IMG/VR virus record: IMGVR_UViG_3300037468_000371
Coordinates: 8,723-72,722 of that record
Source of the DNA: a virus
Strand: one strand, 5' to 3'
DNA: 64,000 nucleotides
Shown: piece after piece, positions 33,322-64,000 of the stretch
Position numbering within the stretch: position 1 is the stretch's first letter
Layout of the letters: each line of letters starts with the position of its first letter
Translations under genes and position numbers: made by a program
The notes under the pieces: model-generated
Database searches by the model: none
Seen by the model: only the letters and a program-made list of their open reading frames with translations
Told to the model about the DNA's origin: nothing

Positions 33322-33332
33322 GGGCGAACGCC

Positions 33333-47481: not shown

Positions 47482-47547
47482 GCGCCCTCCTTCCGCGCCC
47501 TCGCCCGGCGGAGCCGATCCCCGTAGAGCTTCTTCATCGTCGCCAGT

Positions 47548-47811: not shown

Positions 47812-47828
47812 CTCTCCGCCTTCGGCGC

Positions 47829-49423: not shown

Positions 49424-49426
49424 CGG

Positions 49427-49855: not shown

Positions 49856-49882
49856 TTCTCGCTTCCTCCGTTCTCGTTCTTG

Positions 49883-50056: not shown

Positions 50057-50280
50057 CAGTCTTCCTTGCCGGGCGTCACGTCGAGCATCACGAACACGAG
50101 CCCGCCGCCCATCGATACGGCGGCGCAGCTCGCGATGCAGGCGCGCCAGAGTGGCCGCATGTCATCGAACGGGCTCACGAGCAAACTCGCCTGCTCGTAG
50201 GCGTACTTCAGCAGCAGGTAGATGCAGAAGTAGATGACAGCACTGAGAACCGTGCGCCATCCAGCATCGAGCTTCGTCAT
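50056..50280 (-). CDS. Small membrane protein
   Basis: Two hydrophobic segments; RBS GGAGG. Confidence 0.5.
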   Translation of the reverse strand: MTKLDAGWRTVLSAVIYFCIYLLLKYAYEQASLLVSPFDDMRPLWRACIASCAAVSMGGGLVFVMLDVTPGKED

Positions 50281-50609
50281 CAGTGGTCGCCTCCTCCGCC
50301 CTTCAGCATGTTCTTGCGCCAGCGGCGCCGCCGTAGCGCATCTTCGAGTCGGGCCGGGTCCATCGCCAGTATCGTTTCGGCCTCCTCGGCCCGCGCTCGC
50401 GCCAGCCGGCCAAGCGCCGGCCCCAGCTCGATCGTTACCCACGTGGCTGCCTCCCGACACTCTAGGGCGTCTTGCTCCAGGGCGCCCCGCCCGTTGGGGC
50501 GGGCAACGATCTCCATGTACTCTTCGAAACAGGCGCGCCTGAACTCGGACATGTTGCCCGAGTAGGCCGATCTGATCCGAAGCGTTGCGGCGGGTTCGAA
50601 TGGTTCCAT
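50280..50609 (-). CDS. Hypothetical protein
   Basis: ORF in the array after a long hairpin. Confidence 0.5.
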   Translation of the reverse strand: MEPFEPAATLRIRSAYSGNMSEFRRACFEEYMEIVARPNGRGALEQDALECREAATWVTIELGPALGRLARARAEEAETILAMDPARLEDALRRRRWRKNMLKGGGGDH

Positions 50610-50650
50610 AGTCCCTGCTCCATCCTGTGGCATCACTGCCGGTCCGCTGC

Positions 50651-50704
50651 CGTCCGAACCGGAACGGGGGCGGCCACGCGCCGCCCCTCGTTCCGGCCCG
50701 GACG
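50651..50704 (-). other. About 24-bp intergenic hairpin (RNase III-like substrate or terminator)
   Basis: CGUCCGGGCCGGAACGAGGGGCGGC / GCCGCCCCCGUUCCGGUUCGGACG on the minus strand. Confidence 0.6.
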
Positions 50705-50718
50705 CCCTGCGCGTCCTG

Positions 50719-51819: not shown

Positions 51820-51958
51820 GGTTCCCTACCTTTCGTGCCGGCCGGCGGCTCTCGTGTCCGCGCGGCGGCGGTCGACTCGTGCGGCTTCAGTGCCGCAGAG
51901 CACCGAGAGATGCACGGGCGGCTGCCCGTGCATCCTTGCGCTGCCCTGCGACTGCCCC

Positions 51959-52135
51959 CTACTTCCAGGACGCCGGGGTCACTTTGATGTGATCGGCCTT
52001 CGGCGGCCGGGGGTTCCGTTCCTTCAACAGCCGCAAGGCGGCCTGCGCTACCTCGCGGACGTCAGCGTACCTGTACTCCACGGCGATCGCTGCGAGGTCT
52101 TGGATCGTCAGGATCTTTCGGTCGACCTTCATCAT
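51959..52135 (-). CDS. Small hypothetical protein (58 aa)
   Basis: MMKVDRKILTIQDLAA...; ATGA coupling. Confidence 0.5.
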   Translation of the reverse strand: MMKVDRKILTIQDLAAIAVEYRYADVREVAQAALRLLKERNPRPPKADHIKVTPASWK

Positions 52136-52710
52136 CTGCCTTCCCCCTTAGCCTTGATTGCGGCCATCTTCCGTTCGATCTCCCGGCGACGGCGCTCCAG
52201 CTTCTTCAACGCGGTCTGAGCACGCCGCAGCCGCGTGGTCCATGCCTTAGAGCGCGTCTCGATCGACGTGCGCTCCCGCTCCATCCGTTCGACCGGCCCG
52301 GGCTTCACCCGCTGGGGCTCGGGCCGATGTGCGATACGCCAGCGGTCCTCGGCGGCCCACGCGAATCGCTCGTCGTAGCCGGACCACCGATACCGCGGTC
52401 CCATGTCACGGTGCTCGACTCCGCGGAGGTGCGCGAACTCGTGCGCCAGCACGAACGCCACCATCGGCGCGTTCGCCTCCTCGGGCTCGCCGGCCGCTGG
52501 ACGAGGGATGCGGATCACGCACCAGTTGCCCCGCAGGATCGCTCGGCCCGTCACGTACCGTCCGTTTCGGCGGGCTCGCGGCGGCGGGTACCGCACGTTC
52601 ACGGTCACCCGCTCCACCTTCGCCGGATCCAGCTCGCCCCTGCGCGCCACGGCCATCGCCAGGCGCCGCAACGCGCGGGTGTCGAACCGTGTCTCGTTGA
52701 CGATCTTCAC
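52132..52710 (-). CDS. HExxH zinc-metallopeptidase-like protein
   Basis: VLAHEFAHLRG..H; GTGA coupling. Confidence 0.65.
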   Translation of the reverse strand: MKIVNETRFDTRALRRLAMAVARRGELDPAKVERVTVNVRYPPPRARRNGRYVTGRAILRGNWCVIRIPRPAAGEPEEANAPMVAFVLAHEFAHLRGVEHRDMGPRYRWSGYDERFAWAAEDRWRIAHRPEPQRVKPGPVERMERERTSIETRSKAWTTRLRRAQTALKKLERRRREIERKMAAIKAKGEGR

Positions 52711-52949
52711 GGCTTCTGGACCCTCCACAGCTTCCTCTCGACTTCGCGGTGCCGGGCGCCCTTGCGATCCTCTAACGTCAGGTAGCGCACGCCGAACATG
52801 ATCTCCTCCTTGATCACTCGGCAGATCCATGCCGGGTCGGGCCATCCGGCCACTTCCGTGCCGTCGTAGAAGGTCGGCGGCTGCTGAGTCACGTGATCAC
52901 CGACCGCGATCGTCGGCTTCGGCGCTGCCAGCTTCGTCGTCACTGTCAT
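52707..52949 (-). CDS. Hypothetical protein
   Basis: RBS GAGGGAG. Confidence 0.55.
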   Translation of the reverse strand: MTVTTKLAAPKPTIAVGDHVTQQPPTFYDGTEVAGWPDPAWICRVIKEEIMFGVRYLTLEDRKGARHREVERKLWRVQKP

Positions 52950-52962
52950 GTATGCTCCCTCC

Positions 52963-53310
52963 TCAGTCTTCCGGGCTCTCGTCGCCCAGGTCGTGGATGT
53001 CGATCAGGTCCAGGGCCGTCAGGGCTTCCATGCGGCAATGCCGACCGGCGGCGTATCCGCGCACCCAGATCGCGCGCAGCTCGGCACTCGGCGGGTCCGT
53101 GTCGATCTCCGTGATCGGCCGGCCCTGCTCGCCAGCGTGCCAGCCGTGCTCGAAGTAGAACTGCCCTTCGGGCATCGCGTCCGACGCCGGCATCGGATCA
53201 TCGTACGCAGCGCCTCTCTCGCGCCGCAGCCGCTTCGCGCGGATCCGCTCGGCGAGCGGCGCCGCGTCCCATCCACCCTCGATCCAGCGGTCCTGCCTCG
53301 TCATGGTCAT
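52963..53310 (-). CDS. Hypothetical protein
   Basis: ATGA coupling; FEHGW..G...W.RGY pattern. Confidence 0.5.
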   Translation of the reverse strand: MTMTRQDRWIEGGWDAAPLAERIRAKRLRRERGAAYDDPMPASDAMPEGQFYFEHGWHAGEQGRPITEIDTDPPSAELRAIWVRGYAAGRHCRMEALTALDLIDIHDLGDESPED

Positions 53311-53525
53311 GGCCTCGCCTCCATCGCTGCCCTCCAATCATCCACGAGCTGGTCGCAGCTGATCGGTCGGGCAAGGTAGTAGTCGTAGCATCGATCGCCC
53401 ATGCCGCGCCAGCGCATCGCGGCGCGCACGTCCGAGACGGTGATGTCGTTGCGGACAGAGAACTGGTCCAGGCCGATCTTCACGATTCGTCGGCCCGCGC
53501 CCGGCCACTCGTCACGAGGGATCAT
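53307..53525 (-). CDS. Hypothetical protein
   Basis: RBS AGGAG. Confidence 0.55.
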   Translation of the reverse strand: MIPRDEWPGAGRRIVKIGLDQFSVRNDITVSDVRAAMRWRGMGDRCYDYYLARPISCDQLVDDWRAAMEARP

Positions 53526-53559
53526 GGTTGCGTTGTCTCCTGTCTGTCTTCCGGCGTGT

Positions 53560-53874
53560 TCACCACTTCGCCCAGCTGGGCAGTCCGTCGTAGATGCGAT
53601 CGCAGATCAGCTCGTAGATCTCCGCTGCGCTCACGTTACCCTGCTCGCGCTGCCGGCGCGCGACCGCAAGGTTGCACGCGTAGTTGGCGAGATCGCCCGT
53701 GGCCATCACCGTTCCGGCGCCACCCTGCGGGAACAGCGCGCGGGACAGGCGGCCGCCGGAGTGGCGCGACCAGAACGACCACAGCTCGTCGTAGTCGGCC
53801 GCGTCCAGGTTCGGCACTTCGACCTGGGGCGGCGGTTTCATCATGCTTGCGGGCTTCGTCTTCACGTTCGTCAC
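53560..53874 (-). CDS. Hypothetical protein
   Basis: RBS GGAGG; C-terminal YE.ICDRIY..LP.WAKW. Confidence 0.6.
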   Translation of the reverse strand: MTNVKTKPASMMKPPPQVEVPNLDAADYDELWSFWSRHSGGRLSRALFPQGGAGTVMATGDLANYACNLAVARRQREQGNVSAAEIYELICDRIYDGLPSWAKW

Positions 53875-54203
53875 AGTCCCTCCAGTCCAGCCTCACCCGG
53901 CGTGAAGTACTCGCGCAGTGCCACACGCACCATCGCTCGCCGTTCCGTGCTCGTCAGGCCACCCCATGCCAGAACCGCGGCGGGGTTCAGGCCGCCGTGG
54001 TCTACGATGTAGTCGAGGACCGCCTCACAGGCCATCCAGTACGTCAGCCGGTAGCCGGTCGGCACCAGCGCAGATCGCAGATCAGCGTCGACCATCTCGT
54101 AGGTGTGGCCGATGGCATCCAGGAATTCCGAGCGCGTGGCCCGGTATCCATGAACGTCCAGTTCGCTGTTGCGAACGCCGCCCTTCGCTGTCTTGCAGAT
54201 CAC
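53871..54203 (-). CDS. Hypothetical protein
   Basis: RBS GGAGG, GTGA coupling. Confidence 0.5.
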   Translation of the reverse strand: MICKTAKGGVRNSELDVHGYRATRSEFLDAIGHTYEMVDADLRSALVPTGYRLTYWMACEAVLDYIVDHGGLNPAAVLAWGGLTSTERRAMVRVALREYFTPGEAGLEGL

Positions 54204-54397
54204 CGCCCGCGCCTCCGGTTGTACTCGCGCTGGTAGTAGCCACGGGCCGTCTTGATCTTGTCGCGGAGCGCAGTCTTGTCCAGCATCGACAGCCCGAGGT
54301 CGTTGGCCTCGGTCGCGAAGCCGTGTCGCAACAGCAGCCGCTCCAGGAACTCGGCTTCCGTGTCGCTGATCTTCAGGTTGACATTCGGCAGATTCAC
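54200..54397 (-). CDS. Hypothetical protein
   Basis: RBS GGAGGTG. Confidence 0.55.
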   Translation of the reverse strand: MNLPNVNLKISDTEAEFLERLLLRHGFATEANDLGLSMLDKTALRDKIKTARGYYQREYNRRRGR

Positions 54398-54693
54398 TTG
54401 TCACCTCCGCTGGGTCGGAAGAATCGGAACTCCCCGTCCACGACCATCACGAATCCGATACGGGTGCGGTCCGGCCGTGCCGGGATCGTGAAGTAGCTGT
54501 CCGGCACGCCGAGCCGAACGCGTCGCAGTCGGCCGTCAGGGAACCGGACCAGACCGCGACGGTTCGACTCGCTTGCACTGCCGTACGGTGTGTTGTACGC
54601 CAGCTCCTCGGGCTCGATCCACGTCTCGCCAAGCCACGTCACCCGCTCTTCCATGCCGGGGCGTGGCTTCAGGTACTTCCGCGCGATGCTCAT
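54394..54693 (-). CDS. Hypothetical protein
   Basis: ATGA coupling; PDSYFTIPAR. Confidence 0.55.
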   Translation of the reverse strand: MSIARKYLKPRPGMEERVTWLGETWIEPEELAYNTPYGSASESNRRGLVRFPDGRLRRVRLGVPDSYFTIPARPDRTRIGFVMVVDGEFRFFRPSGGDK

Positions 54694-55232
54694 CGCACTT
54701 CCTGCCCGTGCCACTTTCGCGTCTTGCCGACGCTGAGCGTCCAGACCATCAGCAGGTTGCCGTGGTCGGACAGCTCGAACACGATGTCGCCGGGGCCATC
54801 GCTGGCCGCGGCGTCATCGAGCATGTCCGGCGTCACGTTGCCCACCTTTGGGCAAACACACGGGATCTCCTCGCTCGCCCAGACACCGATGTCCGCGCCG
54901 TCACCCGGGTGCGCTCCGACGTAGTGTCCGGGCGGAGCGTACATCGTGAGGATGTCTTCGAGATCGCTCCAGGCTTCCGACAGCGTCTCGATCGCGTGCT
55001 CCTGCTCCTGCTCGTAGGTGTCGGCGTCCCAGACCGAATTCATGGCCGCTGAGACCTCCGCTCCGATCCGACGGACCCGGTTGCGGTCCGCGCGGCTCAT
55101 GCTGACCCAGTGTTCTGCTGCGTGCAGAAGATCCGGCACCACGTCCTCGGCCCGGAGCGTTCCGCTCGAGATCGAGCCGGTCGGCAGCCAGCGCGGTCGC
55201 ACCCGGCGCTTCGCTCGGATGTTGCGAGTCAT
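54690..55232 (-). CDS. Hypothetical protein
   Basis: GSISSGTLR.ED, Y.GAHPGDGAD.G.W, SDHGN. Confidence 0.6.
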   Translation of the reverse strand: MTRNIRAKRRVRPRWLPTGSISSGTLRAEDVVPDLLHAAEHWVSMSRADRNRVRRIGAEVSAAMNSVWDADTYEQEQEHAIETLSEAWSDLEDILTMYAPPGHYVGAHPGDGADIGVWASEEIPCVCPKVGNVTPDMLDDAAASDGPGDIVFELSDHGNLLMVWTLSVGKTRKWHGQEVR

Positions 55233-55255
55233 GTGCATCCCCTTTCTGCTCGGCT

Positions 55256-55594
55256 TCAGCCGTTGTCCTTCGGGTTGGCTTCGTCGTCCGACAGGTGCCC
55301 GAACCGCTCGCGGTTCCAAGCCGCGATCCAGCGGTCCATCGCCTCGACGTAGTGATCACCGCGCCAGCTGTTCGAACCGAACCCGATGTCACCCTCGGCG
55401 AGCTGCCCCACGCCCAGGACGGCGCAGCGGTTCATCTTCCGCTCCGCGATGTCGTCGTAGTCGAACCGGATGATCACCACTCGATCACCCGTGTGCGAGT
55501 CGATCGCCAGGGCGACGTAGAACGGATCGCCCGAGATCCCGTTGCGGTGGAAGGCCAGCTTGATCAGGTTGTGATCCTTGTACGGAGCGCACAT
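55256..55594 (-). CDS. Hypothetical protein
   Basis: HRNGISG.PF...NSWRGD; RBS GAGGAGG. Confidence 0.6.
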   Translation of the reverse strand: MCAPYKDHNLIKLAFHRNGISGDPFYVALAIDSHTGDRVVIIRFDYDDIAERKMNRCAVLGVGQLAEGDIGFGSNSWRGDHYVEAMDRWIAAWNRERFGHLSDDEANPKDNG

Positions 55595-55869
55595 CAGTGA
55601 ATCCTCCTCGGTCCGAGCGGCACCCGGGCCATCTCTTCGTGCTTGAAGACATCCGATCCCGGCACGCCCCACAGCTGCATGCACAGGTAGTCGATCGTCT
55701 CGATCAGTCGGGCTCGCGCCTCGATCTCGCTGGTGCCCGGCTCGCAGATCTTCGACTCTTTGTCGTCGGCGGCGCCTTCCACCAACCCGAGCGCCAGAGC
55801 GACCAGCTCCTCGTTCGAGTACGGCGTCAGCAGCCGTTCCAGCTCGTCCAGCTCTTTCTTCTTCGCCAT
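55594..55869 (-). CDS. Hypothetical protein
   Basis: ORF in the array. Confidence 0.55.
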   Translation of the reverse strand: MAKKKELDELERLLTPYSNEELVALALGLVEGAADDKESKICEPGTSEIEARARLIETIDYLCMQLWGVPGSDVFKHEEMARVPLGPRRIH

Positions 55870-55885
55870 CAGTCGCGTCCCCTTT

Positions 55886-56098
55886 CTAGTTCAGGTGCTT
55901 GAAGCGCACGCTGCTGCGCTTCACGCCGTACAGCCGTTCGAGCAGGTCCAGAGCCTCGCTCGCCTTCGAGCGAGTCCACTCGCCGTCGCCGTAGCAGCGG
56001 ATCCGCTCCGTGCAGATACCGGCCTTCGGGTCAGGGATCCGCAGCGAGAACACCGTGAAGTCCCCGCCGGTCCAGCAGCGCATCACTCGGACGATCAT
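55886..56098 (-). CDS. Hypothetical protein
   Basis: ATGA coupling. Confidence 0.5.
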   Translation of the reverse strand: MIVRVMRCWTGGDFTVFSLRIPDPKAGICTERIRCYGDGEWTRSKASEALDLLERLYGVKRSSVRFKHLN

Positions 56099-56397
56099 GA
56101 CGCGCACCACGCACCGATCAGCCAGCGCACGCGGCCCTCCTGCTGCTCGACGTACCGCACCGCCCGCGCCTCCTCCCACTTCTTGCAGGTGTTCCGCAGG
56201 TAGTCGGTCGCGTTCTGGTAGCTGTCGAACGGCAGGCAGTTGTCGATGATCAGGCCCGTCGTCATCGCGAACCCTCCGGAGTACGAGTGGCCGTGGTCGT
56301 ACTCGTCGCGGCGCTTCTCGGTCTTGTACTCGGCCATCAGGCTATCGCGGTCATTGACCGCGATCTTCGGGATGAACTCGATCCAGTTCGCACCCAT
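56095..56397 (-). CDS. Hypothetical protein
   Basis: RBS GAGGAGG; YDHGHSYSG...KW..A...GAWCAS. Confidence 0.6.
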   Translation of the reverse strand: MGANWIEFIPKIAVNDRDSLMAEYKTEKRRDEYDHGHSYSGGFAMTTGLIIDNCLPFDSYQNATDYLRNTCKKWEEARAVRYVEQQEGRVRWLIGAWCAS

Positions 56398-56413
56398 CGC
56401 CGTTCCTCCTCGA

Positions 56414-57139
56414 TCACCACTTCATCAGCAGCGCCACGGCCGCTTCCTCCTGGCCGGTGCGGTACAGCTTCACCGCGTCGAAGAAGCGGAACATCGCGCA
56501 GTAGAGCATCTTCTCGTCGTCCTCGATCTTCGGCACGTCCGAGGACCAGCTCTTCTCGTCGGCCCACTCGTTGTAGACCACGCGCTTGTTGTCCTCGACC
56601 CAGTTCGACGTCACCGACGTCGACCGTTGCAGCGACTTCGCCTCGTGCCGCGCCGCCTCCACCAGCCAGTCGCGGACCGACTCGGTCAGCAGCCGCTGCG
56701 CGCCCGGATCGGTCGGCGTCGGCATCGGGTCCTTGCCCTCCTCGAACCGCGCGGCCAGCGAGCCGGCCAGCTCGTACCGGATCGCCGCCTGCACCACGCC
56801 GTCCTGCATCCACGAGAGCTCGTAGCTCGGCGCGTCCAGGAACTTCGCGGCCCACTTCTCGATCCCCCCGCGCTCGCTCGCCTCGATCTTGCGGAACGCC
56901 CGCGCGATCAGCGGGTACGGATCGTTCAGCGCGGCGGTCACGGACGCGAGCTTCTTCTCCTCGTACTCCCGCGCGGCCTTCGCCTTCGCCTCCTCGGCGC
57001 GGCGGGCGTGATCCGCCTCGCGCAGCTTGGTCGACTTCTTCTGCCACGGGTCCATCATCGACGTCCCGAGCTTCGTGAGATCGCGGTCGAGTCGCTCGCG
57101 CGCCTCACGCTCCCATCGGTCACTCCGGTACATACCCAT
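56414..57139 (-). CDS. Hypothetical protein (241 aa), downstream of hammerhead D
   Basis: RBS AAAGGAG. Confidence 0.65.
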   Translation of the reverse strand: MGMYRSDRWEREARERLDRDLTKLGTSMMDPWQKKSTKLREADHARRAEEAKAKAAREYEEKKLASVTAALNDPYPLIARAFRKIEASERGGIEKWAAKFLDAPSYELSWMQDGVVQAAIRYELAGSLAARFEEGKDPMPTPTDPGAQRLLTESVRDWLVEAARHEAKSLQRSTSVTSNWVEDNKRVVYNEWADEKSWSSDVPKIEDDEKMLYCAMFRFFDAVKLYRTGQEEAAVALLMKW

Positions 57140-57172: not shown

Positions 57173-57250
57173 TGGCTTAGCATCATCAGTGCGGCGGGAG
57201 CCACCCGCTCGCAGAGGCGCCGGCTCGCGCCGGGCCGGCGCCTTTCGCTA
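57173..57250 (-). ncRNA. Type II hammerhead ribozyme D
   Basis: UAGC-GAAA-GGCGCCGGC..GCCGGCGCC-UC^-UGCG-A-GCGGG-UGGCU-CCCGC-CGCA-CUGAUGA-U-GCUA-AGCCA; all three stems pair; CUC site, cut between 57214 and 57213. Confidence 0.9.
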
Positions 57251-57252
57251 GA

Positions 57253-57570
57253 TCACCAGCGGCGCCCCTCCCGCTCGGCCTGCTCATCCTCCAGCCGGTC
57301 ACGCCACGCCGTGCGGCGCCGTGCGATGTCGCCGCGCAGGTCCGCGAGCGCCGCGTCTCGCTCGCTCGGGTGCAGCGAACCGTCCTGGCTCGCGGCGAGC
57401 AGCTCCGCCTTCAGCTCCAGGATCTCCAGCGCGTACTGCGCCTGCCAGCGATCATGGAACGTCTCGCGGGTGCAGTCCATCGTGTGGTCCACGACGTGGA
57501 ACAGGCTCGCCCCCTCGCCGTGCACCACCGTGATCTCGAACCGCGGCTTCCATCGCTTCGGCTTGCTCAC
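57253..57570 (-). CDS. Hypothetical protein
   Basis: RBS AGGAGG, GTGA coupling. Confidence 0.55.
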   Translation of the reverse strand: MSKPKRWKPRFEITVVHGEGASLFHVVDHTMDCTRETFHDRWQAQYALEILELKAELLAASQDGSLHPSERDAALADLRGDIARRRTAWRDRLEDEQAEREGRRW

Positions 57571-57836
57571 TTGGTCGCCTCCTTTCGGTCACAGATGACG
57601 CCGAAGGCGGCGTCGGTCAGCAGCTCGTAGTAGTCGACCAGCCGCTCGAGGTTCATCGCGGCGAGCTTCTTACCGGCCGTCCGTGCGTGCCATGCACGCT
57701 CCAGCGTCGAGTTGAATCGCTTGTACGCTGCGCGATGCACGGCCTTCAGCTCCGTGATCGTCAGTCGTTCCAGATCGGCCTGCCGATAGGCCCCGTAGGC
57801 CATGTTGGGGCGGAACGCCACGCGCTTGTTCGACAT
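57567..57836 (-). CDS. Hypothetical protein
   Basis: RBS GGAGGTG. Confidence 0.6.
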   Translation of the reverse strand: MSNKRVAFRPNMAYGAYRQADLERLTITELKAVHRAAYKRFNSTLERAWHARTAGKKLAAMNLERLVDYYELLTDAAFGVICDRKEATK

Positions 57837-57839
57837 CGC

Positions 57840-58217
57840 TCAGTCACCTCCCGTGTCGATCGCATCACGGACCTCTTCGAGCAGGTCCAGCACCTCGTAC
57901 AGCACCGTGCGCTTCCGCGTGGATCCGCCCGTCAGCGCGAATTCGCTCGGGCTCAGGCCCATCGCACCCATCGCGTTCTCGGTCAGCGCGTCGGCGCTGT
58001 CCCACGACGTCGTCGCCAGCAGCGCGTCAGCGCACTGCGCCGGCTGGCGGGCGTCGAAGAACTCGGCTCGGAACCACGGCTTCATCCGGTCCGATCGGTC
58101 GGCCGCCACCACGATCCTGATGTGATCGGAGGCGAACTGCCCGTTCATCGCGTCACGCCGCGGTAGCTTGACGATCCGCTCGCGGAACAGGAACCTTCTC
58201 TTCGCCGCTGCGGTCAT
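57840..58217 (-). CDS. Hypothetical protein
   Basis: RBS GGAGGAG, ATGA coupling. Confidence 0.55.
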   Translation of the reverse strand: MTAAAKRRFLFRERIVKLPRRDAMNGQFASDHIRIVVAADRSDRMKPWFRAEFFDARQPAQCADALLATTSWDSADALTENAMGAMGLSPSEFALTGGSTRKRTVLYEVLDLLEEVRDAIDTGGD

Positions 58218-58561
58218 CGCTGCTCCTCCCCCCAAGCCAGCTCGCCCATCATGTCCTCGGCTCCCTGCCGGACCCACTTGATCCCGAGCAGCGCCTCGCC
58301 CACGCGACGGATCCGGTCGTTGCTTTCGGTCGACATCCCGCCGATCATGCCGTAGCAGATCAGCGCCATCGTCACGACCGCCTCCTCCAGCTCGTCGGCC
58401 GACTCCAGGCTCATGATCACGTCGGCTACGGCGTCGATCCTGCGGCAGCGAGCAAACCCGCGCTCGCGCTCTTCGGTCACGGCCCACTCGCGGCGTCGGA
58501 GTTCGGCCTCGGCGGCCAACTGCGCCACGGCGGCCGGGTACTTCTCTCGTGCGGTCATCAT
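58214..58561 (-). CDS. Hypothetical protein
   Basis: RBS AAGGAG. Confidence 0.6.
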   Translation of the reverse strand: MMTAREKYPAAVAQLAAEAELRRREWAVTEERERGFARCRRIDAVADVIMSLESADELEEAVVTMALICYGMIGGMSTESNDRIRRVGEALLGIKWVRQGAEDMMGELAWGEEQR

Positions 58562-58591
58562 GTCTGCGGTCTCCTTGCTGTTCGTGCTGCG

Positions 58592-58819
58592 TCACTTCCC
58601 ACAGGTCGGGCACGGCGGAAGGCTGATCCGCTGCGCCCAGTAGCTCGCCATCTTCGCGCACATCTCCGGAGCCATCGGCCGGCGATGCACTCGCGAGCCG
58701 GGTCCCTTCGGTCCGACCGTCACGGTCTCGGTCCGCGTGTGGCCGCAAGGCCAGATCCACCGGAACCGCGATCCGCCGAGGTACTCGCCTCGGCCCGATA
58801 CCGTCCGTCGCGGCTTCAT
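58592..58819 (-). CDS. Hypothetical Zn-ribbon-like protein
   Basis: CGH...CPTC; RBS AGGAGG. Confidence 0.55.
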   Translation of the reverse strand: MKPRRTVSGRGEYLGGSRFRWIWPCGHTRTETVTVGPKGPGSRVHRRPMAPEMCAKMASYWAQRISLPPCPTCGK

Positions 58820-58942
58820 CTAGAACCTCCTGCCCCGGCGGCATTCGATCGCGTCCACGACCGTCCAGATCAGGCACCCGATCGAGCCGAGTGCGATCAG
58901 GGCGATGATCCCGAGTCCGTAGGCTGCGTACAGGTCGGTCAT
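58820..58942 (-). CDS. Small single-TM peptide (40 aa)
   Basis: MTDLYAAYGLGIIALIALGSIGCLIWTVVDAIECRRGRRF. Confidence 0.45.
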   Translation of the reverse strand: MTDLYAAYGLGIIALIALGSIGCLIWTVVDAIECRRGRRF

Positions 58943-58947
58943 CGCCG

Positions 58948-59337
58948 TCAGTCCATCCGGCTCATCGGGATCGCTCGGATCCCCGCTTCCGTCAGCGTCC
59001 GGGCGTAGGCGTGCGCGTACGACTCCTTGCGCGTAATCGACTGCCCGTACTCGTGGACCCAGATCGTGACGCCTCCGTAGTACCCGTCCGGTCGGGCCAG
59101 TCCGTGCTTCTTCAGCCAGTTCGCGAAAGGTCCGTTGCCTGGCTTGATGTTCACCCACGCGAATCCGCACGGGCCCTCGGGCACGATCCACTGCTTGCGG
59201 ATCGGGCTCGCGTCGTCGAGCATGTCCGTGTGCTCCGACACGATCATCGTCGGCGGCGTCACACCCGTCGCTGCGGCGTGGCCGGCGGCGGCCGCGCGGT
59301 CATGCAGGGCTTGCCAGTCCTGCTTCTGGTAGCTCAC
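58948..59337 (-). CDS. Widespread phage early protein
   Basis: GPCGFAWV...QSITRKE.YA.AYA..L...GI....SRMD. Confidence 0.7.
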   Translation of the reverse strand: MSYQKQDWQALHDRAAAAGHAAATGVTPPTMIVSEHTDMLDDASPIRKQWIVPEGPCGFAWVNIKPGNGPFANWLKKHGLARPDGYYGGVTIWVHEYGQSITRKESYAHAYARTLTEAGIRAIPMSRMD

Positions 59338-59358
59338 TCTCTCGCTCCTTTCTATCGG

Positions 59359-59664
59359 TCACTCGTACTGCGGTCGGCCCGGCCGATGGAACATCGCGCG
59401 GGCCGCGTGGGCCGTCAACTTCGTCGTGTGGATGCGGACTCGGCCCGTGCTCAGGACCGAGCTCAGCGGTAGGCCGTCATCCAGATGCGCGAAGCGGCGT
59501 CGCATCTCGCGCCGAACGCGTCGGTTCCGCTTCTTGCCGCGGGCGCGTCGCAGCGCCAGAACGGCCTTGGCGTCGTACCACCAGCCGCCCTCCTCCGGGC
59601 CGCCGTATCCACGCCAGATCTCGTACGCGAGGATCACTCCACGCTTCTTCGTCTCGTTGGTCAT
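59359..59664 (-). CDS. Hypothetical phage protein
   Basis: YGGPEEGGWWYD...SVLS...RPQYE. Confidence 0.7.
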   Translation of the reverse strand: MTNETKKRGVILAYEIWRGYGGPEEGGWWYDAKAVLALRRARGKKRNRRVRREMRRRFAHLDDGLPLSSVLSTGRVRIHTTKLTAHAARAMFHRPGRPQYE

Positions 59665-59676
59665 GTGGTCACCCCG

Positions 59677-60039
59677 TCACCCGAAGACGATCTCGCCGAA
59701 CACCGCCATCTGCAGGAACGCGTCACCCGTGCCCGCGTCGTCGTTCTCCTCGATCACGTCCTGGATGTGCTTCGGGAACGACTGCGCCAGCAGCCTCAGC
59801 CCCTGCCGGCAGTTCTCCTCGTTGAGCAACAGTGGCGTCGGCGCGTTCTCCGGGTCGTAGGGCACGATCTTCAGCGCCCCGCCCGCCATCGGCACTTCGC
59901 TCATGTAGCGGACGGGCGTGTCTGGCTGGCGGGCGACCTTCAGCCCGTTGATCCAGTAGCCGGATCCACCCTCGAAGGCCGAACACAGCAGATCGCTGAT
60001 CCGCTCGTCCGGGATGTCAAACTCCACCTTGACTTTCAT
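59677..60039 (-). CDS. Hypothetical phage protein, downstream of hammerhead C
   Basis: AFEGG.GYW...DA..GD..LQ.AVFGEIVFG; RBS AAAGGAG. Confidence 0.7.
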   Translation of the reverse strand: MKVKVEFDIPDERISDLLCSAFEGGSGYWINGLKVARQPDTPVRYMSEVPMAGGALKIVPYDPENAPTPLLLNEENCRQGLRLLAQSFPKHIQDVIEENDDAGTGDAFLQMAVFGEIVFG

Positions 60040-60069
60040 GGTTGCGGGCTCCTTTCTCGCTACGGTTGG

Positions 60070-60156
60070 TGGCTTGCCTCATCAGGCCGGCGGGCGCCAC
60101 CCGCTCGGCGACCGATCAGGGCGCGGCGGCTTCGCGCGCCCCGATCGGTTATCGGC
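60070..60156 (-). ncRNA. Type II hammerhead ribozyme C (GAUAA core variant)
   Basis: GCC-GAUAA-14-bp stem III-UC^-GCCG-A-GCGGG-UGGCG-CCCGC-CGGC-CUGAUGA-GGC-AAGCCA; GUC site, cut between 60110 and 60109. Confidence 0.8.
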
Positions 60157-60157
60157 A

Positions 60158-60379
60158 TCAGTACCCGTCGAGTCCCATCTCGGCCCGATCAGCGCATCGG
60201 TTGCACTGGTACCCCAGTGCTACGTCAGCCGGCGTCAGGGCGTTCTTCGCTCCGCACGTCGGGCACGGCCGGTTCCTCGGGTTCGACTTCGTCGCGCGCC
60301 GCAGCGCGCTCGTCCCGCCCGGGTCCGCGAACATGCGGCATCGGTCAGCCCACTCCTCGCGATCGTAGTCTTCGTTCAC
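60158..60379 (-). CDS. Small Zn-finger protein
   Basis: FADPGG.SALR...CPTC...YQC..CAD. Confidence 0.65.
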   Translation of the reverse strand: MNEDYDREEWADRCRMFADPGGTSALRRATKSNPRNRPCPTCGAKNALTPADVALGYQCNRCADRAEMGLDGY

Positions 60380-60849
60380 AGCCGTTCCTCCTTCGGGTCG
60401 TTGGCGTTCCACTCCATGAACCGGGCGACCAGCTCGTCCATCACTCGGTCAAACTCGTCCGAATCCTCGATCCGCTGCTCCGGATCGTCCGCGTCGAGTT
60501 CGTCCATGCTCAGCCTCGACGCCAGCAGCTCCATCGCGCTCTCGGCGGCGTGCTCGATGTTCTCCGCGTCCTTCGAGAGCTCCTGGCTCATGTGGATCGG
60601 CACGTCGCTCCCGCCCGCGCCGCTCAGCATTCCGACTGCCGATCCGAACAGCTCCTCGATCAGGTACTCGGCCTTCCGCTGCCATGACGTCTTCAGGACG
60701 AGGCGGCTTCCGCACCGATCGTAGATCAGCACGCGGATCCATCCTTCCGCGACTCGCGCCTCGACCGTCACCCGCAGCGTCGTGTTCTCGCCCGTCGAGG
60801 GCGCCGTCACTGTCACTTCGGCATGCTCTCGCGTCACCGTGTCGCTCAT
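60376..60849 (-). CDS. Hypothetical acidic protein
   Basis: RBS GGAGGAG upstream; acidic C-terminus. Confidence 0.6.
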   Translation of the reverse strand: MSDTVTREHAEVTVTAPSTGENTTLRVTVEARVAEGWIRVLIYDRCGSRLVLKTSWQRKAEYLIEELFGSAVGMLSGAGGSDVPIHMSQELSKDAENIEHAAESAMELLASRLSMDELDADDPEQRIEDSDEFDRVMDELVARFMEWNANDPKEERL

Positions 60850-60854
60850 CTCGA

Positions 60855-61313
60855 TCACTCCTCCCATGTTCCGGTCGTCCAGCTCCGGCGCTCGGCTTCC
60901 GCATCCGCCTCTTCGTCCGACAGGAACGGCGGCTCGATCGCGATCTCGTCGCAGTAGCCCCTGTCACTCAGCTCGTAGTACAGGAACCCGATCAGGCTCT
61001 CCAGGTTCGCGCCATCCAGCGTCCCGTCCGGGTGCATCGTGCGGATCAGCCCCCTGGCCATCGCGCTCACGTCCTGGAGGAAGTCCTCCTCGACCGTGCG
61101 CCAGCGCGTCGTCGCGATCGGCTCGCGATCGTACGGGTTGATCAGCTGCGCCCGTACCTTCGTGCCGATCGAGTTGACCATCACGGTCGGGATCACCGGC
61201 GAGTAGTCGAATGCCGGCGACGTTTCCTGCGTCTTGTCGGTCAGGTACAGCTTCGGTCCGGTCGCGACCGACCGGCCGGTCGTCTCGTCACCCTTGATCA
61301 TCATCGTCGTCAC
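60855..61313 (-). CDS. Hypothetical protein
   Basis: RBS AGGAG; exact start uncertain. Confidence 0.55.
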   Translation of the reverse strand: MTTMMIKGDETTGRSVATGPKLYLTDKTQETSPAFDYSPVIPTVMVNSIGTKVRAQLINPYDREPIATTRWRTVEEDFLQDVSAMARGLIRTMHPDGTLDGANLESLIGFLYYELSDRGYCDEIAIEPPFLSDEEADAEAERRSWTTGTWEE

Positions 61314-61319
61314 TCCTGT

Positions 61320-61463
61320 TCAGCGGCGGCGGCGCTCGATGCGCGGCCGGCCGATGTAGCTCTTCTTCTCGGGAAGGCACAGTGCGATCAGGACGATCAT
61401 CATCGGTGCCCCGACACAGATCACCATCGTGAGCAGGAACTCCATCTCGGTCACGGGCATCAT
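61320..61463 (-). CDS. Small single-TM peptide
   Basis: RBS AAGGAG; hydrophobic core and basic tail. Confidence 0.5.
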   Translation of the reverse strand: MMPVTEMEFLLTMVICVGAPMMIVLIALCLPEKKSYIGRPRIERRRR

Positions 61464-61681
61464 TCGGCGGTCTCCTTGTTCGTGCGTTCGTTGGTCAGCC
61501 ACTCGATCATCGCCTCCTCCAGCCCGATCTCTCGGGCCGCGGCGATCAGGATCGTGCGGGTCGCTTCAATCACCCGTGTGCGATACTCCAGCCCGCGCGC
61601 TGCTCGTTCAGCGGCGCGGCGGGCTCGGCGGCGCGCGTTCCAGCGCGCTCGGATCTGCTCTGCCTGTTCCGGCGTCGTCAC
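61460..61681 (-). CDS. Hypothetical basic protein
   Basis: GTGA coupling. Confidence 0.5.
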   Translation of the reverse strand: MTTPEQAEQIRARWNARRRARRAAERAARGLEYRTRVIEATRTILIAAAREIGLEEAMIEWLTNERTNKETAE

Positions 61682-62058
61682 GACGGGAGACTCACCCGTG
61701 TGATCACCCGGGCCGTCGCGGCCAACCGGCGCCGCACTCGCATCGCGGCCAGCGCCACCGCGCGTCCGTCACCCGTACCGGCCGCCGCGGTCGCCTCGGT
61801 CAGCTCCTCGATCGCGTCCACGGTCGCGCTCAGCTTCTCGAGCACCTCGTCGTTCAGCCGGATCTTGTCCGGCATCCCGATCACGCTCTTCGCGGTCGCG
61901 TACACGGCTCCGAGCGCCGCCCGGGCCGGCGCCACTCGGGCCGGTCCGTTCCGGTCGATCAGGGCCGCGCGGTTGATTGCGTTCTCGAGGTCGCCGGCGC
62001 GGTCGTACAGTTCGGCGGTGCGCCGTCGAAGCCGGCGCGTCTTCAGCTCATCGGTCAT
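61678..62058 (-). CDS. Hypothetical helical protein, downstream of hammerhead B
   Basis: RBS AGGAG before ATG 62058. Confidence 0.65.
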   Translation of the reverse strand: MTDELKTRRLRRRTAELYDRAGDLENAINRAALIDRNGPARVAPARAALGAVYATAKSVIGMPDKIRLNDEVLEKLSATVDAIEELTEATAAAGTGDGRAVALAAMRVRRRLAATARVITRVSLPS

Positions 62059-62077
62059 GGTTGCGGTCTCCTGTTCT

Positions 62078-62156
62078 TGGCTTGCCTCATCAGGCCGGCG
62101 GGCGCCACCCGCTTCGGCGACCGGGCGCCCGCGGCCGCGGGCCACCCGGTTTCGGC
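62078..62156 (-). ncRNA. Type II hammerhead ribozyme B
   Basis: GCC-GAAA-CCGGG..CCCGG-UC^-GCCG-AA-GCGGG-UGGCG-CCCGC-CGGC-CUGAUGA-GGC-AAGCCA; canonical core, cut between 62119 and 62118. Confidence 0.92.
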
Positions 62157-62159
62157 GTG

Positions 62160-62657
62160 TCAGTCCAGGTCCACGTCCGGGAAGGTCAGGCCGGCCGTTC
62201 GGGCGATCGTGTGCGTCAACTGATCGCACATCCGCATCAGTGTCACGAACTGTTCCTCCTGCGCCCGGCGCCCGGCGAACCAGTCGTCCTGCGCGGCCAT
62301 TGCCATGTTCTCTTCGATCACGTCCAGGGCCGCTTGCATCATCGCGCGGGCGTCCGACAGCCGCTCGGCCGGCGGCAGCTTCGCCGGCGTCGCCACCCCG
62401 GTCACTCGCCAGATGCTGTTCAGCTCGACCGGCCCGGTCGTCATCTTCATGAAGCCCTCGACCAGCGCGCTGCGATTCAGGTTCACCTCGCCCGCTTCGA
62501 TCAGCATCGCGGCGGCGTGCGCCGCGGGCTCCGCGGTCACTTCGTCCTCCTGGGCGGCCCACATCATCGCGGTCCAGATCGCGTTCAGCTCGTCATTCGC
62601 CTGCGCGATCGCATCGCCCACGGTCAACTCGACTTCGACCCGTGTGTGTTCGGTCAT
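62160..62657 (-). CDS. Hypothetical protein
   Basis: RBS AGGAG; stop lies 3 nt before hammerhead B. Confidence 0.65.
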   Translation of the reverse strand: MTEHTRVEVELTVGDAIAQANDELNAIWTAMMWAAQEDEVTAEPAAHAAAMLIEAGEVNLNRSALVEGFMKMTTGPVELNSIWRVTGVATPAKLPPAERLSDARAMMQAALDVIEENMAMAAQDDWFAGRRAQEEQFVTLMRMCDQLTHTIARTAGLTFPDVDLD

Positions 62658-62741
62658 TTCAGCGTTCTCCTAGTCCGTACTGCGTTCGGTCTTCGATCAG
62701 CGGCATGCTCACTCGCGCGCGGGCGCGCGCTCGTTCCGCGG

Positions 62742-62954
62742 TCAGGCCATCCCGTTTCGCACGGCGTACTTCAGCTCGGGGCCGAAGTCACTCGTCAGGT
62801 CGTGCATCCAGTCGGGAATCGGCTGCTTCGAACCGATGCCGATCAGGTCTTCCGTCTCGATCACGATCAACTTCGGGCGTCGCTCGGCCGCGCGGCGGCG
62901 TTCGGCTGCATGGCGGGCGCGCTGCATCTTGGTGGCGGCGTTCGTCACGGGCAT
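62742..62954 (-). CDS. Hypothetical protein (70 aa)
   Basis: MPVTNAATK...; purine-rich leader. Confidence 0.45.
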   Translation of the reverse strand: MPVTNAATKMQRARHAAERRRAAERRPKLIVIETEDLIGIGSKQPIPDWMHDLTSDFGPELKYAVRNGMA

Positions 62955-63064
62955 CTTCGTTCTCGCTTTCTGTCTGTCCTTCGTTCGACTACTGCTTCCC
63001 ACCCCGGCGTCGAGGTCGCGCCGGCGGCGTTCCATCTTGGTCAGGCCCGGCCTTTCGGCCGTGG

Positions 63065-63152
63065 CGTTCGCGCGGCCGCGGCCATCGTTCGCGCGGCCGC
63101 GGCGCGTTCTCTCTCGCGCGGCCGCGGCGTTCGTTCGGCCGCGGCGCGTTCG
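63065..63152. repeat. Cluster of about 4 imperfect direct repeats CGTTCGCGCGGCCGCGGC
   Basis: Exact copies at 63065-63082 and 63086-63103; partial copies follow. Confidence 0.75.
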
Positions 63153-63163
63153 GCGGTGCGCGG

Positions 63164-63478
63164 TTACTTCGCGTTCCGCTTCGCGGCGGCCCGCTTCGCG
63201 TTCAGCGTCTGCCCGCCCCACGGCTCGCAGTCGCCGGTCTCGTAGATCACGGTCATCGCTTCCTTCTGGGTCACGATGTGGGCGTCCGCTCGCGCCCACC
63301 ACTCGTCGAGCCACTCGTTGCAGGCCGTCCACTCGATCTCCTCGCAGTCGTCGCACAGGATCTCGTCGCGGTCGCAGTCGCTCGGGTGCGGCCCGCTTTC
63401 CACGTCCGCCGGCGGCCACGCTGCCGGTCGGCCACAGCGCGTGCACTTCGGGCCTCGGTGCTTCTTCTGCTCGGTCAT
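63164..63478 (-). CDS. Cys-rich hypothetical protein, downstream of hammerhead A
   Basis: CTRC...CDDC; RBS AGGAG. Confidence 0.65.
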   Translation of the reverse strand: MTEQKKHRGPKCTRCGRPAAWPPADVESGPHPSDCDRDEILCDDCEEIEWTACNEWLDEWWARADAHIVTQKEAMTVIYETGDCEPWGGQTLNAKRAAAKRNAK

Positions 63479-63504
63479 GGTCGCGTCTCCTGGTCACGTT
63501 CGGT

Positions 63505-63583
63505 TGGCTTGTCATCGTCAGGCCGGCGGGAGCCACCCGCGCGGCGACGCGTCGCGCTCGGATTCGGCGCGGCGCGTTTCGAC
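63505..63583 (-). ncRNA. Type II hammerhead ribozyme A
   Basis: GUC-GAAA-CGCGCCGCGC..GCGCGACGCG-UC^-GCCG-C-GCGGG-UGGCU-CCCGC-CGGC-CUGACGA-U-GAC-AAGCCA; cut between 63546 and 63545. Confidence 0.88.
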
Positions 63584-64000
63584 TTTCGCAGTCGGGCCTG
63601 AAGCTCGCCGCGGCGTGTTCGCGGTCCGGTCAGGTTCCTTCCTTCGTGCGCTCGGGGCTCGGTGGTCGATCGTCTCGTCGATTCGGAGGTCGTATGCTCA
63701 CTCATCATACTTTTCCGATTTGGGCGCGTCGGCTTCGTCGTCGCGGGGCACCGTTCTCTTATCCAGGTCGCCCCGCCCGGTCACTCAGTCCGCGCGGTTC
63801 TCGATCGCTCTTCCCCTACTCTGTCAGGAATCCGATTCCGATTCCGTCTTGTCAATCACGCGCGGGCCGCGCTCATTCGCGGCCCGGTGAAATCGCCCCA
63901 CCCCGGCGCGCCAAAATGGCGCGGCCGGCCAAAATGGCCGGGGGGGCGTAAAAGCGGCGGGCGGACCCCCCCACCCGGGCCGGCGGCCCGGGTGGCGGGG

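What the first reader, a model, noticed from the sequence alone, without database searches (positions are those of the whole stretch)
57173..63583. Four type II hammerhead ribozymes segment the early minus-strand gene array
Seen in sequence: four intergenic elements (63505-63583, 62078-62156, 60070-60156, 57173-57250) share the order stemII-GAAA-stemIII-NUC-stemI-CUGANGA-stemII on the coding strand. They show compensatory changes: stem II is GUC/GAC, GCC/GGC or UAGC/GCUA; stem I is GCCG/CGGC or UGCG/CGCA; stem III differs in every copy but still pairs. B, C and D begin 1-3 nt after a stop codon. All four cut sites lie 60-74 nt upstream of an ATG with an AGGAG RBS. Established: this is the hammerhead catalytic core, cleavage leaves 5'-OH and 2',3'-cyclic phosphate ends, and hammerheads are known near phage genes. 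Inference: the phage self-processes one long early transcript into segments of about 1427, 2009 and 2896 nt plus a distal piece. This would be a protein-free analogue of RNase III processing of T7 early mRNA, with 5'-OH ends resisting 5'-monophosphate-dependent decay.
Basis: partly seen in the sequence, partly recalled or inferred. Interest (0 to 1): 0.92.

Follow-up and report, generated by a model that had tools for sequence, protein, structure and literature searches.

The report
Four hammerhead ribozymes between phage genes
Four self-cutting hammerhead RNAs really do sit between gene blocks of this uncultured phage and probably cut one long message into pieces, but this arrangement was described for phages in 2011 and is common.

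Summary
Four elements on the minus strand (about 63583-63505, 62156-62078, 60156-60070, 57250-57173) are type II hammerhead ribozymes. Each has the loop I/3'-tail pseudoknot typical of Rfam RF02276.

- **Scores.** They miss Rfam's cut-off (20-28.6 bits against 37), mostly because stem III is unusually long. A model built only from 69 hammerheads of other viral contigs scores them 55-69 bits (E 1e-12 to 2e-16). The next match in the window scores 10.7 bits.
- **One correction.** Copy C reads GAUAA, not GAAA. This is the "U13a" core insertion already named by Perreault et al. 2011.

The interpretation (self-processing of a long phage transcript) is plausible but untested here, and it is not new. 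The same paper proposed it for clustered prophage hammerheads and showed cleavage of three tandem sets. Other viral contigs carry 10-12 copies per 10-15 kb. Earlier notes of this scan report such arrays on other DNA.

Only the long stem III, the sparse spacing and the U13a copy are particular to this phage. It is a new member of a known kind, of low to moderate interest.

The parts
63505..63583 (-). Hammerhead A (type II). GUC-GAA-stem III (31 nt, 15.1 to 16.1)-C17 | stem I (GCCG-C-GCGGG UGGCU CCCGC-CGGC)-CUGACGA-u-GAC-AA-GCCA. The cut falls between 63546 and 63545. It lies in a non-coding leader, with no coding ORF upstream.
   Evidence: 25.8 bits RF02276; 69.3 bits, E 2e-16; the minimum-energy fold is the three-way junction; the ORF overlapping it has flat G+C by codon position: 0.65/0.68/0.67.
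62078..62156 (-). Hammerhead B. GCC-GAA-stem III (31 nt)-C17 | stem I with an AA bulge-CUGAUGA-GGC-AA-GCCA. The cut falls between 62119 and 62118. It starts 3 nt after the stop codon of the 165-aa ORF.
   Evidence: 21.0 bits; 55.4 bits, E 1.1e-12. The hammerhead fold (-45.9 kcal/mol) is isoenergetic with the minimum-energy fold (-46.0), and it is the best fold of the nascent 66-75-nt prefixes.
60070..60156 (-). Hammerhead C, a core variant. (U)GCC-GA-U-A-stem III (39 nt, 15 bp)-C17 | stem I-CUGAUGA-GGC(A)-A-GCCA. The extra U (U13a) is at 60151. The cut falls between 60110 and 60109. It starts 1 nt after a stop codon.
   Evidence: 55.5 bits; the model places the U as an insertion inside GAAA; the minimum-energy fold is the hammerhead junction, z = -4.98; U13a is named in Perreault 2011; 0 of the 150 best family matches carry an insertion there.
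57173..57250 (-). Hammerhead D. UAGC-GAA-stem III (29 nt)-C17 | stem I (UGCG-A-GCGGG UGGCU CCCGC-CGCA)-CUGAUGA-u-GCUA-A-GCCA. The cut falls between 57214 and 57213. It starts 2 nt after a stop codon.
   Evidence: 28.6 bits; 68.0 bits, E 4.4e-16; the minimum-energy fold is the hammerhead junction.
63584..64000 (-). Non-coding leader upstream of hammerhead A, running to the end of the contig. A promoter is presumed here but none was identified. It contains a 17-bp palindrome at the very end of the contig and two small hairpins with ATTTT loops.
   Evidence: no sigma-70-like site; I2, D4; no coding signature.
62160..63478 (-). Block 1, between cuts A and B: three ORFs (104, about 70 and 165 aa), plus a 210-nt spacer with tandem repeats.
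   Evidence: no PHROG family; D1.
60158..62058 (-). Block 2, between cuts B and C: six ORFs (126, 73, about 47-60, 149, 157 and 73 aa).
   Evidence: The last ORF has a homologue (78% over 51 aa) that is also followed by a hammerhead in L006 and L009.
57253..60039 (-). Block 3, between cuts C and D: nine ORFs (120, 101, 129, 40, 75, 115, 125, 89 and 105 aa).
   Evidence: only PHROGs of unknown function.
44234..57139 (-). Distal part of the same co-oriented gene array, starting with a 241-aa ORF. It holds no further hammerhead.
   Evidence: no ribozyme family at E<=1; best R1 match in this stretch 8.8 bits.

Best explanation
The four elements are genuine type II hammerhead ribozymes of the widespread phage/prophage family (Rfam RF02276). 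They sit in 'stop codon - ribozyme - ribosome-binding site - start codon' cassettes.

Proposed mechanism:
1. As the minus-strand array is transcribed, each ribozyme folds. Stem III forms first, then stem I. Loop I (UGGC) then pairs with the 3' tail (GCCA) to dock stems I and II.
2. Each ribozyme cuts after C17.
3. The first cut removes a leader. The next three split the message into blocks of 3, 6 and 9 genes (1427, 2009 and 2896 nt), plus a long distal piece.
4. Each upstream piece ends in the G+C-rich stem III hairpin with a 2',3'-cyclic phosphate.
5. Each downstream piece begins with a 5'-OH buried in the stem I hairpin, followed about 25-38 nt after stem II by AGGAG and ATG.
6. The blocks can therefore be translated and degraded independently.

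What is shown: the motif, the fold, family membership by sequence and structure, and the position on the coding strand.

What is inferred: cleavage in vivo, a single transcript, the end-protection role and early timing. Copy C (U13a) probably cuts, perhaps more slowly.
For: - **Core and topology.** CUGANGA, GAA, A15.1-U16.1 and C17 are present, with three stems in type II order in all four copies.
- **Rfam.** RF02276 aligns 1-66/66 to all four.
- **Independent model.** R1 gives 55-69 bits against 10.7 for the next match.
- **Covariation in the family.** On 69 hammerheads from other contigs, 94.9% of 1431 cells pair. 311 cells change on both sides, against 105.1 +/- 8.7 in shuffles (0 of 500 reach the observed value). 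Slid controls pair at most 43.9%.
- **Pseudoknot.** UGGC/GCCA is present with the same AA spacer in all four copies. The partner of the U is A in 47 and G in 15 of 69 family members.
- **Folding.** The minimum-energy fold is the hammerhead for A, C and D. For B it is isoenergetic and is the best fold of the nascent RNA.
- **Cassette layout is family-wide.** Among 90 non-redundant relatives the stop-to-ribozyme gap has a median of 1 nt (65 of 84 are <=5). The cut-to-start distance has a median of 60 nt, IQR 56-67. The window's copies fit this.
- **Published cleavage.** Passages read report three tandem prophage sets cleaving during in vitro transcription, one of them also in E. coli. They also report type II hammerheads near phage-like genes of D. 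vulgaris cleaving in vivo (PMC8782182).
- **Copy C.** U13a is described as a tolerable insertion.
Against: - All four copies fall below Rfam's curated threshold.
- R1 was built from sequences fished with a pattern taken from the window's own 3' half. The rows were also pre-filtered by a parser that demands pairing. High scores on that half and the high percentage paired are therefore partly built in.
- I have no RNA data. No RNA run holds the stretch.
- No promoter or terminator was identified, so a single transcript is assumed rather than shown.
- Copy C's core insertion was seen in 0 of the 150 best family matches. I could not see its measured activity, because the supplementary figures are closed.
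- Perreault et al. themselves say the function of the clusters is unknown. They also report that 4 of 18 consensus hammerheads they tested did not cleave.
- A 5'-OH end is a decay signal in hosts with RNase J.
- Only the first 6.4 kb of a roughly 19-kb co-oriented array carries ribozymes. Processing is therefore not a general need of this array.
Confidence: 0.7

Rival explanations
1. Graded or regulated cutters. The copies are active but deliberately unequal. They differ in core (U13a in C; a 1-nt insert after A9 in A and D) and in stem III length. Cleavage rate would then set different lifetimes, amounts or timing for the gene blocks, rather than giving simple constitutive processing.
For: Core and near-core differences between the copies can be read. 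Perreault 2011 raises regulated cleavage and slower phage variants as a possibility (discussion passage). The stem III elements (29-39 nt) are far longer than the family median of 18. B has an isoenergetic competing fold.
Against: No rates are known. The 1-nt insert after A9 is common in the family (18 of 69) and need not slow anything. No ligand-binding or switch-like element is evident.
Confidence: 0.12
2. Selfish or modular cassette. The ribozyme + RBS + start unit spreads by duplication or recombination and marks the joints of exchangeable gene modules. Cleavage would be tolerated rather than useful.
For: B and C share a 3' half that is identical apart from the last few bases (91% over 46 nt, D2). 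Similarity between cassettes runs on through the RBS into the first codons (D6). The same ribozyme family follows unrelated genes in many contigs. The short-read contigs of the runs break at the shared repeat (table 8).
Against: Stems I-III keep pairing through compensatory changes across the family, and the core is conserved. This points to selection on the RNA fold rather than on the DNA repeat. The two readings are not mutually exclusive.
Confidence: 0.1
3. Structural RNA only. The elements act as intergenic hairpins (terminators, attenuators or protein-binding sites), and some or all copies no longer cleave.
For: The strong G+C-rich hairpins sit right after stop codons. Copy C has a non-consensus core. 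Perreault 2011 notes that some clustered hammerheads may not be functional.
Against: All catalytic nucleotides are kept in A, B and D, and the pseudoknot in all four. No U-run follows the hairpins, and no minus-strand terminator-like site was found there. Conservation of unpaired core bases is not explained by a hairpin role.
Confidence: 0.05
4. Chance resemblance or a repeat unrelated to ribozymes.
For: The Rfam scores are below threshold. The control genomes also give sub-threshold 'rings' for RF02276.
Against: There are four full-length matches on one strand, all in intergenic gaps, with E 1e-12 to 2e-16 under an independent model. The pattern expectation is 0.02.
Confidence: 0.02

Closest known systems
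Type II hammerhead ribozyme with loop I/3'-tail pseudoknot (Rfam RF02276; Perreault et al. 2011, PMC3088659)
   Same: The catalytic core, the type II permutation (stems I and III closed, stem II open and only 3-4 bp), the UGG(C) loop I pairing with an AGCCA tail, and the setting in a phage or prophage.
   Different: The stem III elements are 29-39 nt, against a median of 18 in 90 relatives. This drops the Rfam score below the gathering cut-off. One copy has the rare U13a insertion.
Clustered hammerheads flanking genes or short gene blocks in prophages (Clostridium scindens, Azorhizobium caulinodans, Agrobacterium tumefaciens; Perreault et al. 2011)
   Same: Several co-oriented ribozymes lie between genes of one presumed polycistronic phage transcript. 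The same processing hypothesis applies. Published in vitro cleavage exists for three sets, and in vivo cleavage for one.
   Different: Here there are four copies spaced 1.4-2.9 kb apart, enclosing 3-9 genes each, and the first lies in the leader. Cleavage is untested for this phage.
Dense hammerhead arrays in other uncultured viral contigs
   Same: The same ribozyme family, the same strand as the genes, and the same stop-ribozyme-RBS cassette layout.
   Different: Those arrays have roughly one ribozyme per gene. The window's array is sparse and covers only the first third of the gene array.
RNase III processing of the phage T7 early transcript
   Same: A long early phage transcript is cut at intergenic hairpins into discrete mRNAs with structured ends.
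   Different: T7 relies on a host protein enzyme and leaves 5'-phosphate and 3'-OH ends. Here the RNA would cut itself, leaving 5'-OH and 2',3'-cyclic phosphate ends. This is an analogy of outcome only.

Membership tests
Hammerhead ribozyme, type II (RF02276) | Core strand C3-U4-G5-A6-N7-G8-A9 | tested here: met
   CUGACGA in A; CUGAUGA in B, C and D.
Hammerhead ribozyme, type II (RF02276) | Core strand G12-A13-A14 directly followed by A15.1 | tested here: inconclusive
   Met in 3 of 4 copies (A, B, D: GAAA). C reads GAUAA, and the model places the U as an insertion. Perreault 2011 names U13a as a natural variant that could point out of the core. I could not see its measured rate.
Hammerhead ribozyme, type II (RF02276) | A15.1-U16.1 pair and H17 (not G) at the cleavage site | tested here: met
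   A...U then C in all four copies.
Hammerhead ribozyme, type II (RF02276) | Three helices around the core in type II order (5' and 3' ends in stem II), with paired positions adjacent to the core | tested here: met
   All four copies. 10.1-11.1 is G-C in all four. A and D have a 1-nt insert after A9, as do 18 of 69 relatives. Helices are supported by covariation in the family.
Hammerhead ribozyme, type II (RF02276) | Pseudoknot of four or more pairs between loop I and the nucleotides just 3' of stem II | tested here: met
   UGGC with GCCA after an AA (D: A) spacer in all four copies. The same columns pair in 96% of family cells. No double-sided covariation could be seen, because loop I was fixed by my search pattern.
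Hammerhead ribozyme, type II (RF02276) | Score at or above Rfam's gathering threshold (37 bits) | tested here: not met
   28.6, 25.8, 21.0 and 20.0 bits. The shortfall comes largely from the long stem III insertions. This is a curation cut-off, not a biological feature.
Hammerhead ribozyme, type II (RF02276) | Site-specific self-cleavage giving 2',3'-cyclic phosphate and 5'-OH ends | not testable with these tools
   No RNA run holds the stretch. This needs a bench assay.
Clustered phage hammerheads that process a polycistronic transcript (Perreault 2011) | Several co-oriented ribozymes in intergenic gaps of one gene array, on the coding strand | tested here: met
   Four copies, all on the minus strand, between minus-strand ORFs with GC3 of 0.80-0.95.
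Clustered phage hammerheads that process a polycistronic transcript (Perreault 2011) | One precursor transcript spans the ribozymes | not testable with these tools
   No promoter or terminator was found by the simple scan, and there are no RNA data.

The most novel reading that the evidence does not exclude
In this phage the hammerheads may have been re-tuned into end-protection and dosage devices. The stem III hairpins, about twice the usual length, would serve as 3'-terminal stabilisers of each upstream block. The different cores (U13a in C, an insert after A9 in A and D) would give each junction its own cleavage rate. Together these would program the relative amounts and timing of four gene blocks from a single promoter without any protein factor.
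Probability: 0.12. Interest if true: 0.5.

Novelty: new member of a known kind. Interest (0 to 1): 0.25.

Why it matters
It adds a clean example in a high-G+C (67.5%) phage to a known but functionally unexplained phenomenon: self-cleaving ribozymes used as intergenic punctuation in phages.

Two points are practical:
- Rfam's gathering threshold misses all four copies, because long stem III insertions depress the score. Standard annotation therefore under-counts such ribozymes in G+C-rich phages.
- The window holds a natural set of four variants side by side: two cores with an insert after A9 (A, D), one fully consensus core (B) and one U13a core (C). This would make a compact test bed for how core variation affects co-transcriptional cleavage.

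It does not open a new question.

Tried and rejected
- **Rfam at gathering threshold** on the whole window: 0 hits.
- **Rfam in E-value mode** on window 1-57000: no ribozyme family, only a weak AS-traI match at E 0.75.
- **RF02276 on the whole 72.7-kb record:** two extra weak matches (16.8 and 11 bits). On reading them they have no hammerhead architecture.
- **cmscan's alternative register for copy C** (GCGC-GAAG, with G15.1): rejected.
- **Close phage relatives:** none in INPHARED by megablast. No relatives of the 241-aa or 120-aa ORFs in viral contigs. The four ribozyme positions therefore could not be compared between orthologous loci. The one exception is the ORF before C, whose homologue in L006/L009 is also followed by a hammerhead.
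- **Expression:** no RNA holder is listed for the stretch. The three DNA runs are kept as contigs only and showed no base differences in the ribozymes. They could not show RNA ends.
- **Promoter/terminator scan of 55000-64000:** 0 promoter-like sites, and 3 terminator-like sites, all on the plus strand, fewer than in shuffles.
- **PHROG/Pfam scans of the array genes:** almost nothing, and nothing with a known function.
- **My strict parser** passed 119 of 259 pattern matches. Of the viral-contig matches, 27 did not pass. I did not classify them all.
- **Rows dropped before alignment A1**: genome-contig loci, duplicates, copies whose stem III element exceeds 30 nt, copies without A15.1-U16.1, and equal-length copies more than 85% identical. 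This went from 84 unique to 69.
- **Literature searches**: I found no paper that goes beyond Perreault 2011 on the function of phage hammerhead clusters. This is not proof that none exists. For Perreault 2011 I read passages and section 8. For PMC8782182 and PMC3328962 I read passages only. Supplementary figures and datasets (Figures S1-S7 and Dataset S1 of Perreault 2011) are closed. They may hold the measured rate of the U13a variant and more cluster examples.

Full report
**What the window is.** The window is the right-hand 64 kb of a 72,722-base IMG/VR virus record. The record is classed as linear, is estimated 78% complete, and has 67.5% G+C. Plus-strand genes include a tape-measure protein, glycosyltransferases, a thymidylate-synthase-like enzyme, an inositol-1-phosphate synthase and a 5-hmdU DNA kinase, so this is a tailed phage. 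From about 63478 down to about 44234 the genes run on the minus strand. The finding concerns the first 6.4 kb of that array, next to the end of the contig.

**Checking the observation.** I read the minus strand. All four elements have the order stem II 5' strand, GAA, A15.1-stem III-U16.1, C17, stem I hairpin, CUGANGA, stem II 3' strand, AA, GCCA. This is the type II hammerhead permutation.
- The first nucleotides after the cut are 63545, 62118, 60109 and 57213.
- The following ATGs are 67, 60, 70 and 74 nt away, each preceded by AGGAG.
- The pieces between cuts are 1427, 2009 and 2896 nt.
- B, C and D start 3, 1 and 2 nt after a stop codon.

The one error concerns copy C, which reads GAUAA rather than GAAA. 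A and D also have one extra U between A9 and G10.1.

**Is it more than chance?**
- The shared 3' half occurs 4 times against 0.02 expected.
- Rfam at its gathering threshold finds nothing. In E-value mode RF02276 (Hammerhead_II) aligns end to end with all four, at 28.6, 25.8, 21.0 and 20.0 bits against a cut-off of 37. In the alignments the long stem III insertions are what cost score.
- For an independent yardstick I collected relatives from other viral contigs with a loose pattern. I parsed them for a complete hammerhead (119 of 259 matches passed). I then aligned 69 non-redundant ones, none from the window, and built model R1.
- With filters off, R1 scores the four copies 69.3, 68.0, 55.5 and 55.4 bits (E 2e-16 to 1.1e-12). 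The next of the 19 listed matches scores 10.7 bits. There are therefore exactly four copies, all on the minus strand.
- One caveat applies. The fishing pattern came from the window's own loop I and core, so the score on that half is partly built in. The 5' half (stem II, GAAA, stem III, UC, outer stem I) is not.

**The fold.** On the 69 relatives, 94.9% of 1431 cells pair.
- 12 of 21 pairs change on both sides, in 311 cells, against 105.1 +/- 8.7 in shuffles (0 of 500 reach the observed value).
- Sliding the partners by 1-3 columns drops pairing to 37-44%.
- The rows had been pre-filtered for pairing of the outer stems, so the percentage is inflated. The variety of pair types is not.
- The pseudoknot columns pair in 96% of cells, but loop I was fixed by my pattern. 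The only variation seen is U-A (47) to U-G (15), with 7 of 69 unpaired.
- In the window, the minimum-energy folds of A, C and D are the three-way junction.
- For B the hammerhead fold (-45.9 kcal/mol) ties with a competitor (-46.0), and it is the best fold of the growing transcript at 66-75 nt.

**Copy C.** cmscan chose a different register with G15.1. Perreault et al. [quoted passage not shown] I could not see its measured rate, because the supplements are closed. It is rare: 0 of the 150 best family matches have an insertion there. The homologue of the ORF before C in L006/L009 (78% over 51 aa) is also followed by a hammerhead, which has a normal GAAA. The U in C therefore looks derived.

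**What is known already.** Perreault et al. 2011 (PMC3088659; abstract, section 8 and passages read) described the following:
- the first natural type II hammerheads;
- the loop I/3'-tail pseudoknot;
- stems II of only two pairs;
- the association with prophages.

[quoted passage not shown] Three tandem sets cleaved during in vitro transcription, and one cleaved in E. coli. A later paper (PMC8782182, passages) detected in vivo cleavage of three type II hammerheads near phage-like genes in D. vulgaris.

**How common arrays are.** R1 over 100 viral loci (926,366 bases) gave 206 matches at E<=0.001. By my hand count of that table, the same-strand copies per locus were:

| Locus | Copies |
|---|---|
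| L052 | 12 |
| L015 | 11 |
| L100 | 10 |
| L038 | 10 |
| L024 | 8 |
| L031 | 7 |
| L050 | 6 |
| L099 | 5 |
| L068 | 5 |
| L091 | 5 |

Each locus is at most about 15 kb. Earlier notes of this scan also report such arrays on other DNA: 271 notes in at least 203 genomes hold the search words, and follow-ups cite up to about 30 copies. I checked only what one search shows. Four copies is a modest case.

**The cassette.** Among 90 non-redundant relatives:
- The gap from the upstream stop codon to the ribozyme has a median of 1 nt. It was found for 84 of them, and 65 are <=5 nt.
- The distance from the cut to the next RBS-preceded start has a median of 60 nt, IQR 56-67. It was found for 79.

The window's values fit this. 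'Stop - ribozyme - RBS - start' is therefore the standard layout of the family, not a peculiarity of this phage. In the window the similarity between cassettes even runs into the first codons (D6).

**What is particular here.**
- The stem III elements are 31, 31, 39 and 29 nt, against a family median of 18. Only 3 of 90 relatives reach 31.
- The array is sparse, with 3, 6 and 9 genes per block. It stops after 6.4 kb of a roughly 19-kb array. No further copy or other ribozyme family appears downstream.
- The first copy sits in a non-coding leader. The ORF that overlaps it has flat G+C by codon position.
- One copy has U13a.

**Mechanism and its limits.** From the anatomy, each cut would leave an upstream RNA ending in a 10-15-bp G+C-rich hairpin, one unpaired C and a cyclic phosphate. 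It would leave a downstream RNA whose 5'-OH nucleotide is paired in stem I. From general knowledge of bacterial mRNA decay (recalled, not tested), such ends are poor entry points for 3' exonucleases and for 5'-end-dependent RNases. In B. subtilis the 5'-OH product of the glmS ribozyme is degraded by RNase J1 (review passage, PMC3328962). The host here is unknown. No RNA data exist for the stretch. The simple scan found no promoter. 'Early' rests only on position and on the small genes without family matches.

**Verdict.** The ribozymes are real (about 0.97). Cleavage by at least A, B and D in vivo is likely (about 0.85), and by C less so (about 0.6). Processing of a multi-gene transcript is the best-supported function (about 0.7). 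It is a new member of a known kind, and interest is 0.25.

Noticed in passing
window 63056-63145 (spacer between the first two ORFs of the array, 62955-63163): There are three or more tandem copies of a 21-27-nt unit built around the palindrome GCGGCCGCGGC, with spacings of 21 and 42 nt (D1 and D11). They lie in a 210-nt non-coding gap. This may be an operator or protein-binding array, or an RNA structure.
   Followed up: partly
window 63904-63939 and 63966-64000: Two adjacent small hairpins have identical ATTTT/AAAAT loops (18-nt units, D4). A 17-bp, 94% complementary palindrome lies at the very end of the contig and on the minus strand is followed by a short T run. This may be a terminator of whatever lies beyond the contig end, just upstream of the array's leader.
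   Followed up: no
window 60076-60107 and 62084-62107: The short-read contigs of run X1 break at the 3' halves of hammerheads C and B, which are nearly identical to each other (table 8). The ribozyme repeats fragment assemblies of this phage. Low-depth contigs of X1 and X2 have loose ends at 62124 and 60119, which hints at variant junctions at the ribozymes.
   Followed up: no
L052, L015, L100, L038 (other IMG/VR contigs): These contigs hold very dense same-strand arrays of the same hammerhead family, with 10-12 copies per 10-15 kb. Some family members (L007 with two copies, L123) have U15.1-A16.1 instead of A-U. Perreault 2011 reports that variant as a slower cutter.
   Followed up: partly
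window 60022-60046, 62041-62065, 63461-63485: The similarity between the ribozyme cassettes continues past the RBS into the start codon and the first codons of the downstream genes (for example ...ACCATGACCGA after A and B; D6). The ribozyme, RBS and start may therefore have been duplicated as one unit.
   Followed up: no
window 30090-35338: The plus-strand cluster holds a thymidylate-synthase-like enzyme, a myo-inositol-1-phosphate synthase and a 5-hmdU DNA kinase. Earlier notes of this scan already treat this as a DNA hypermodification module.
   Followed up: no
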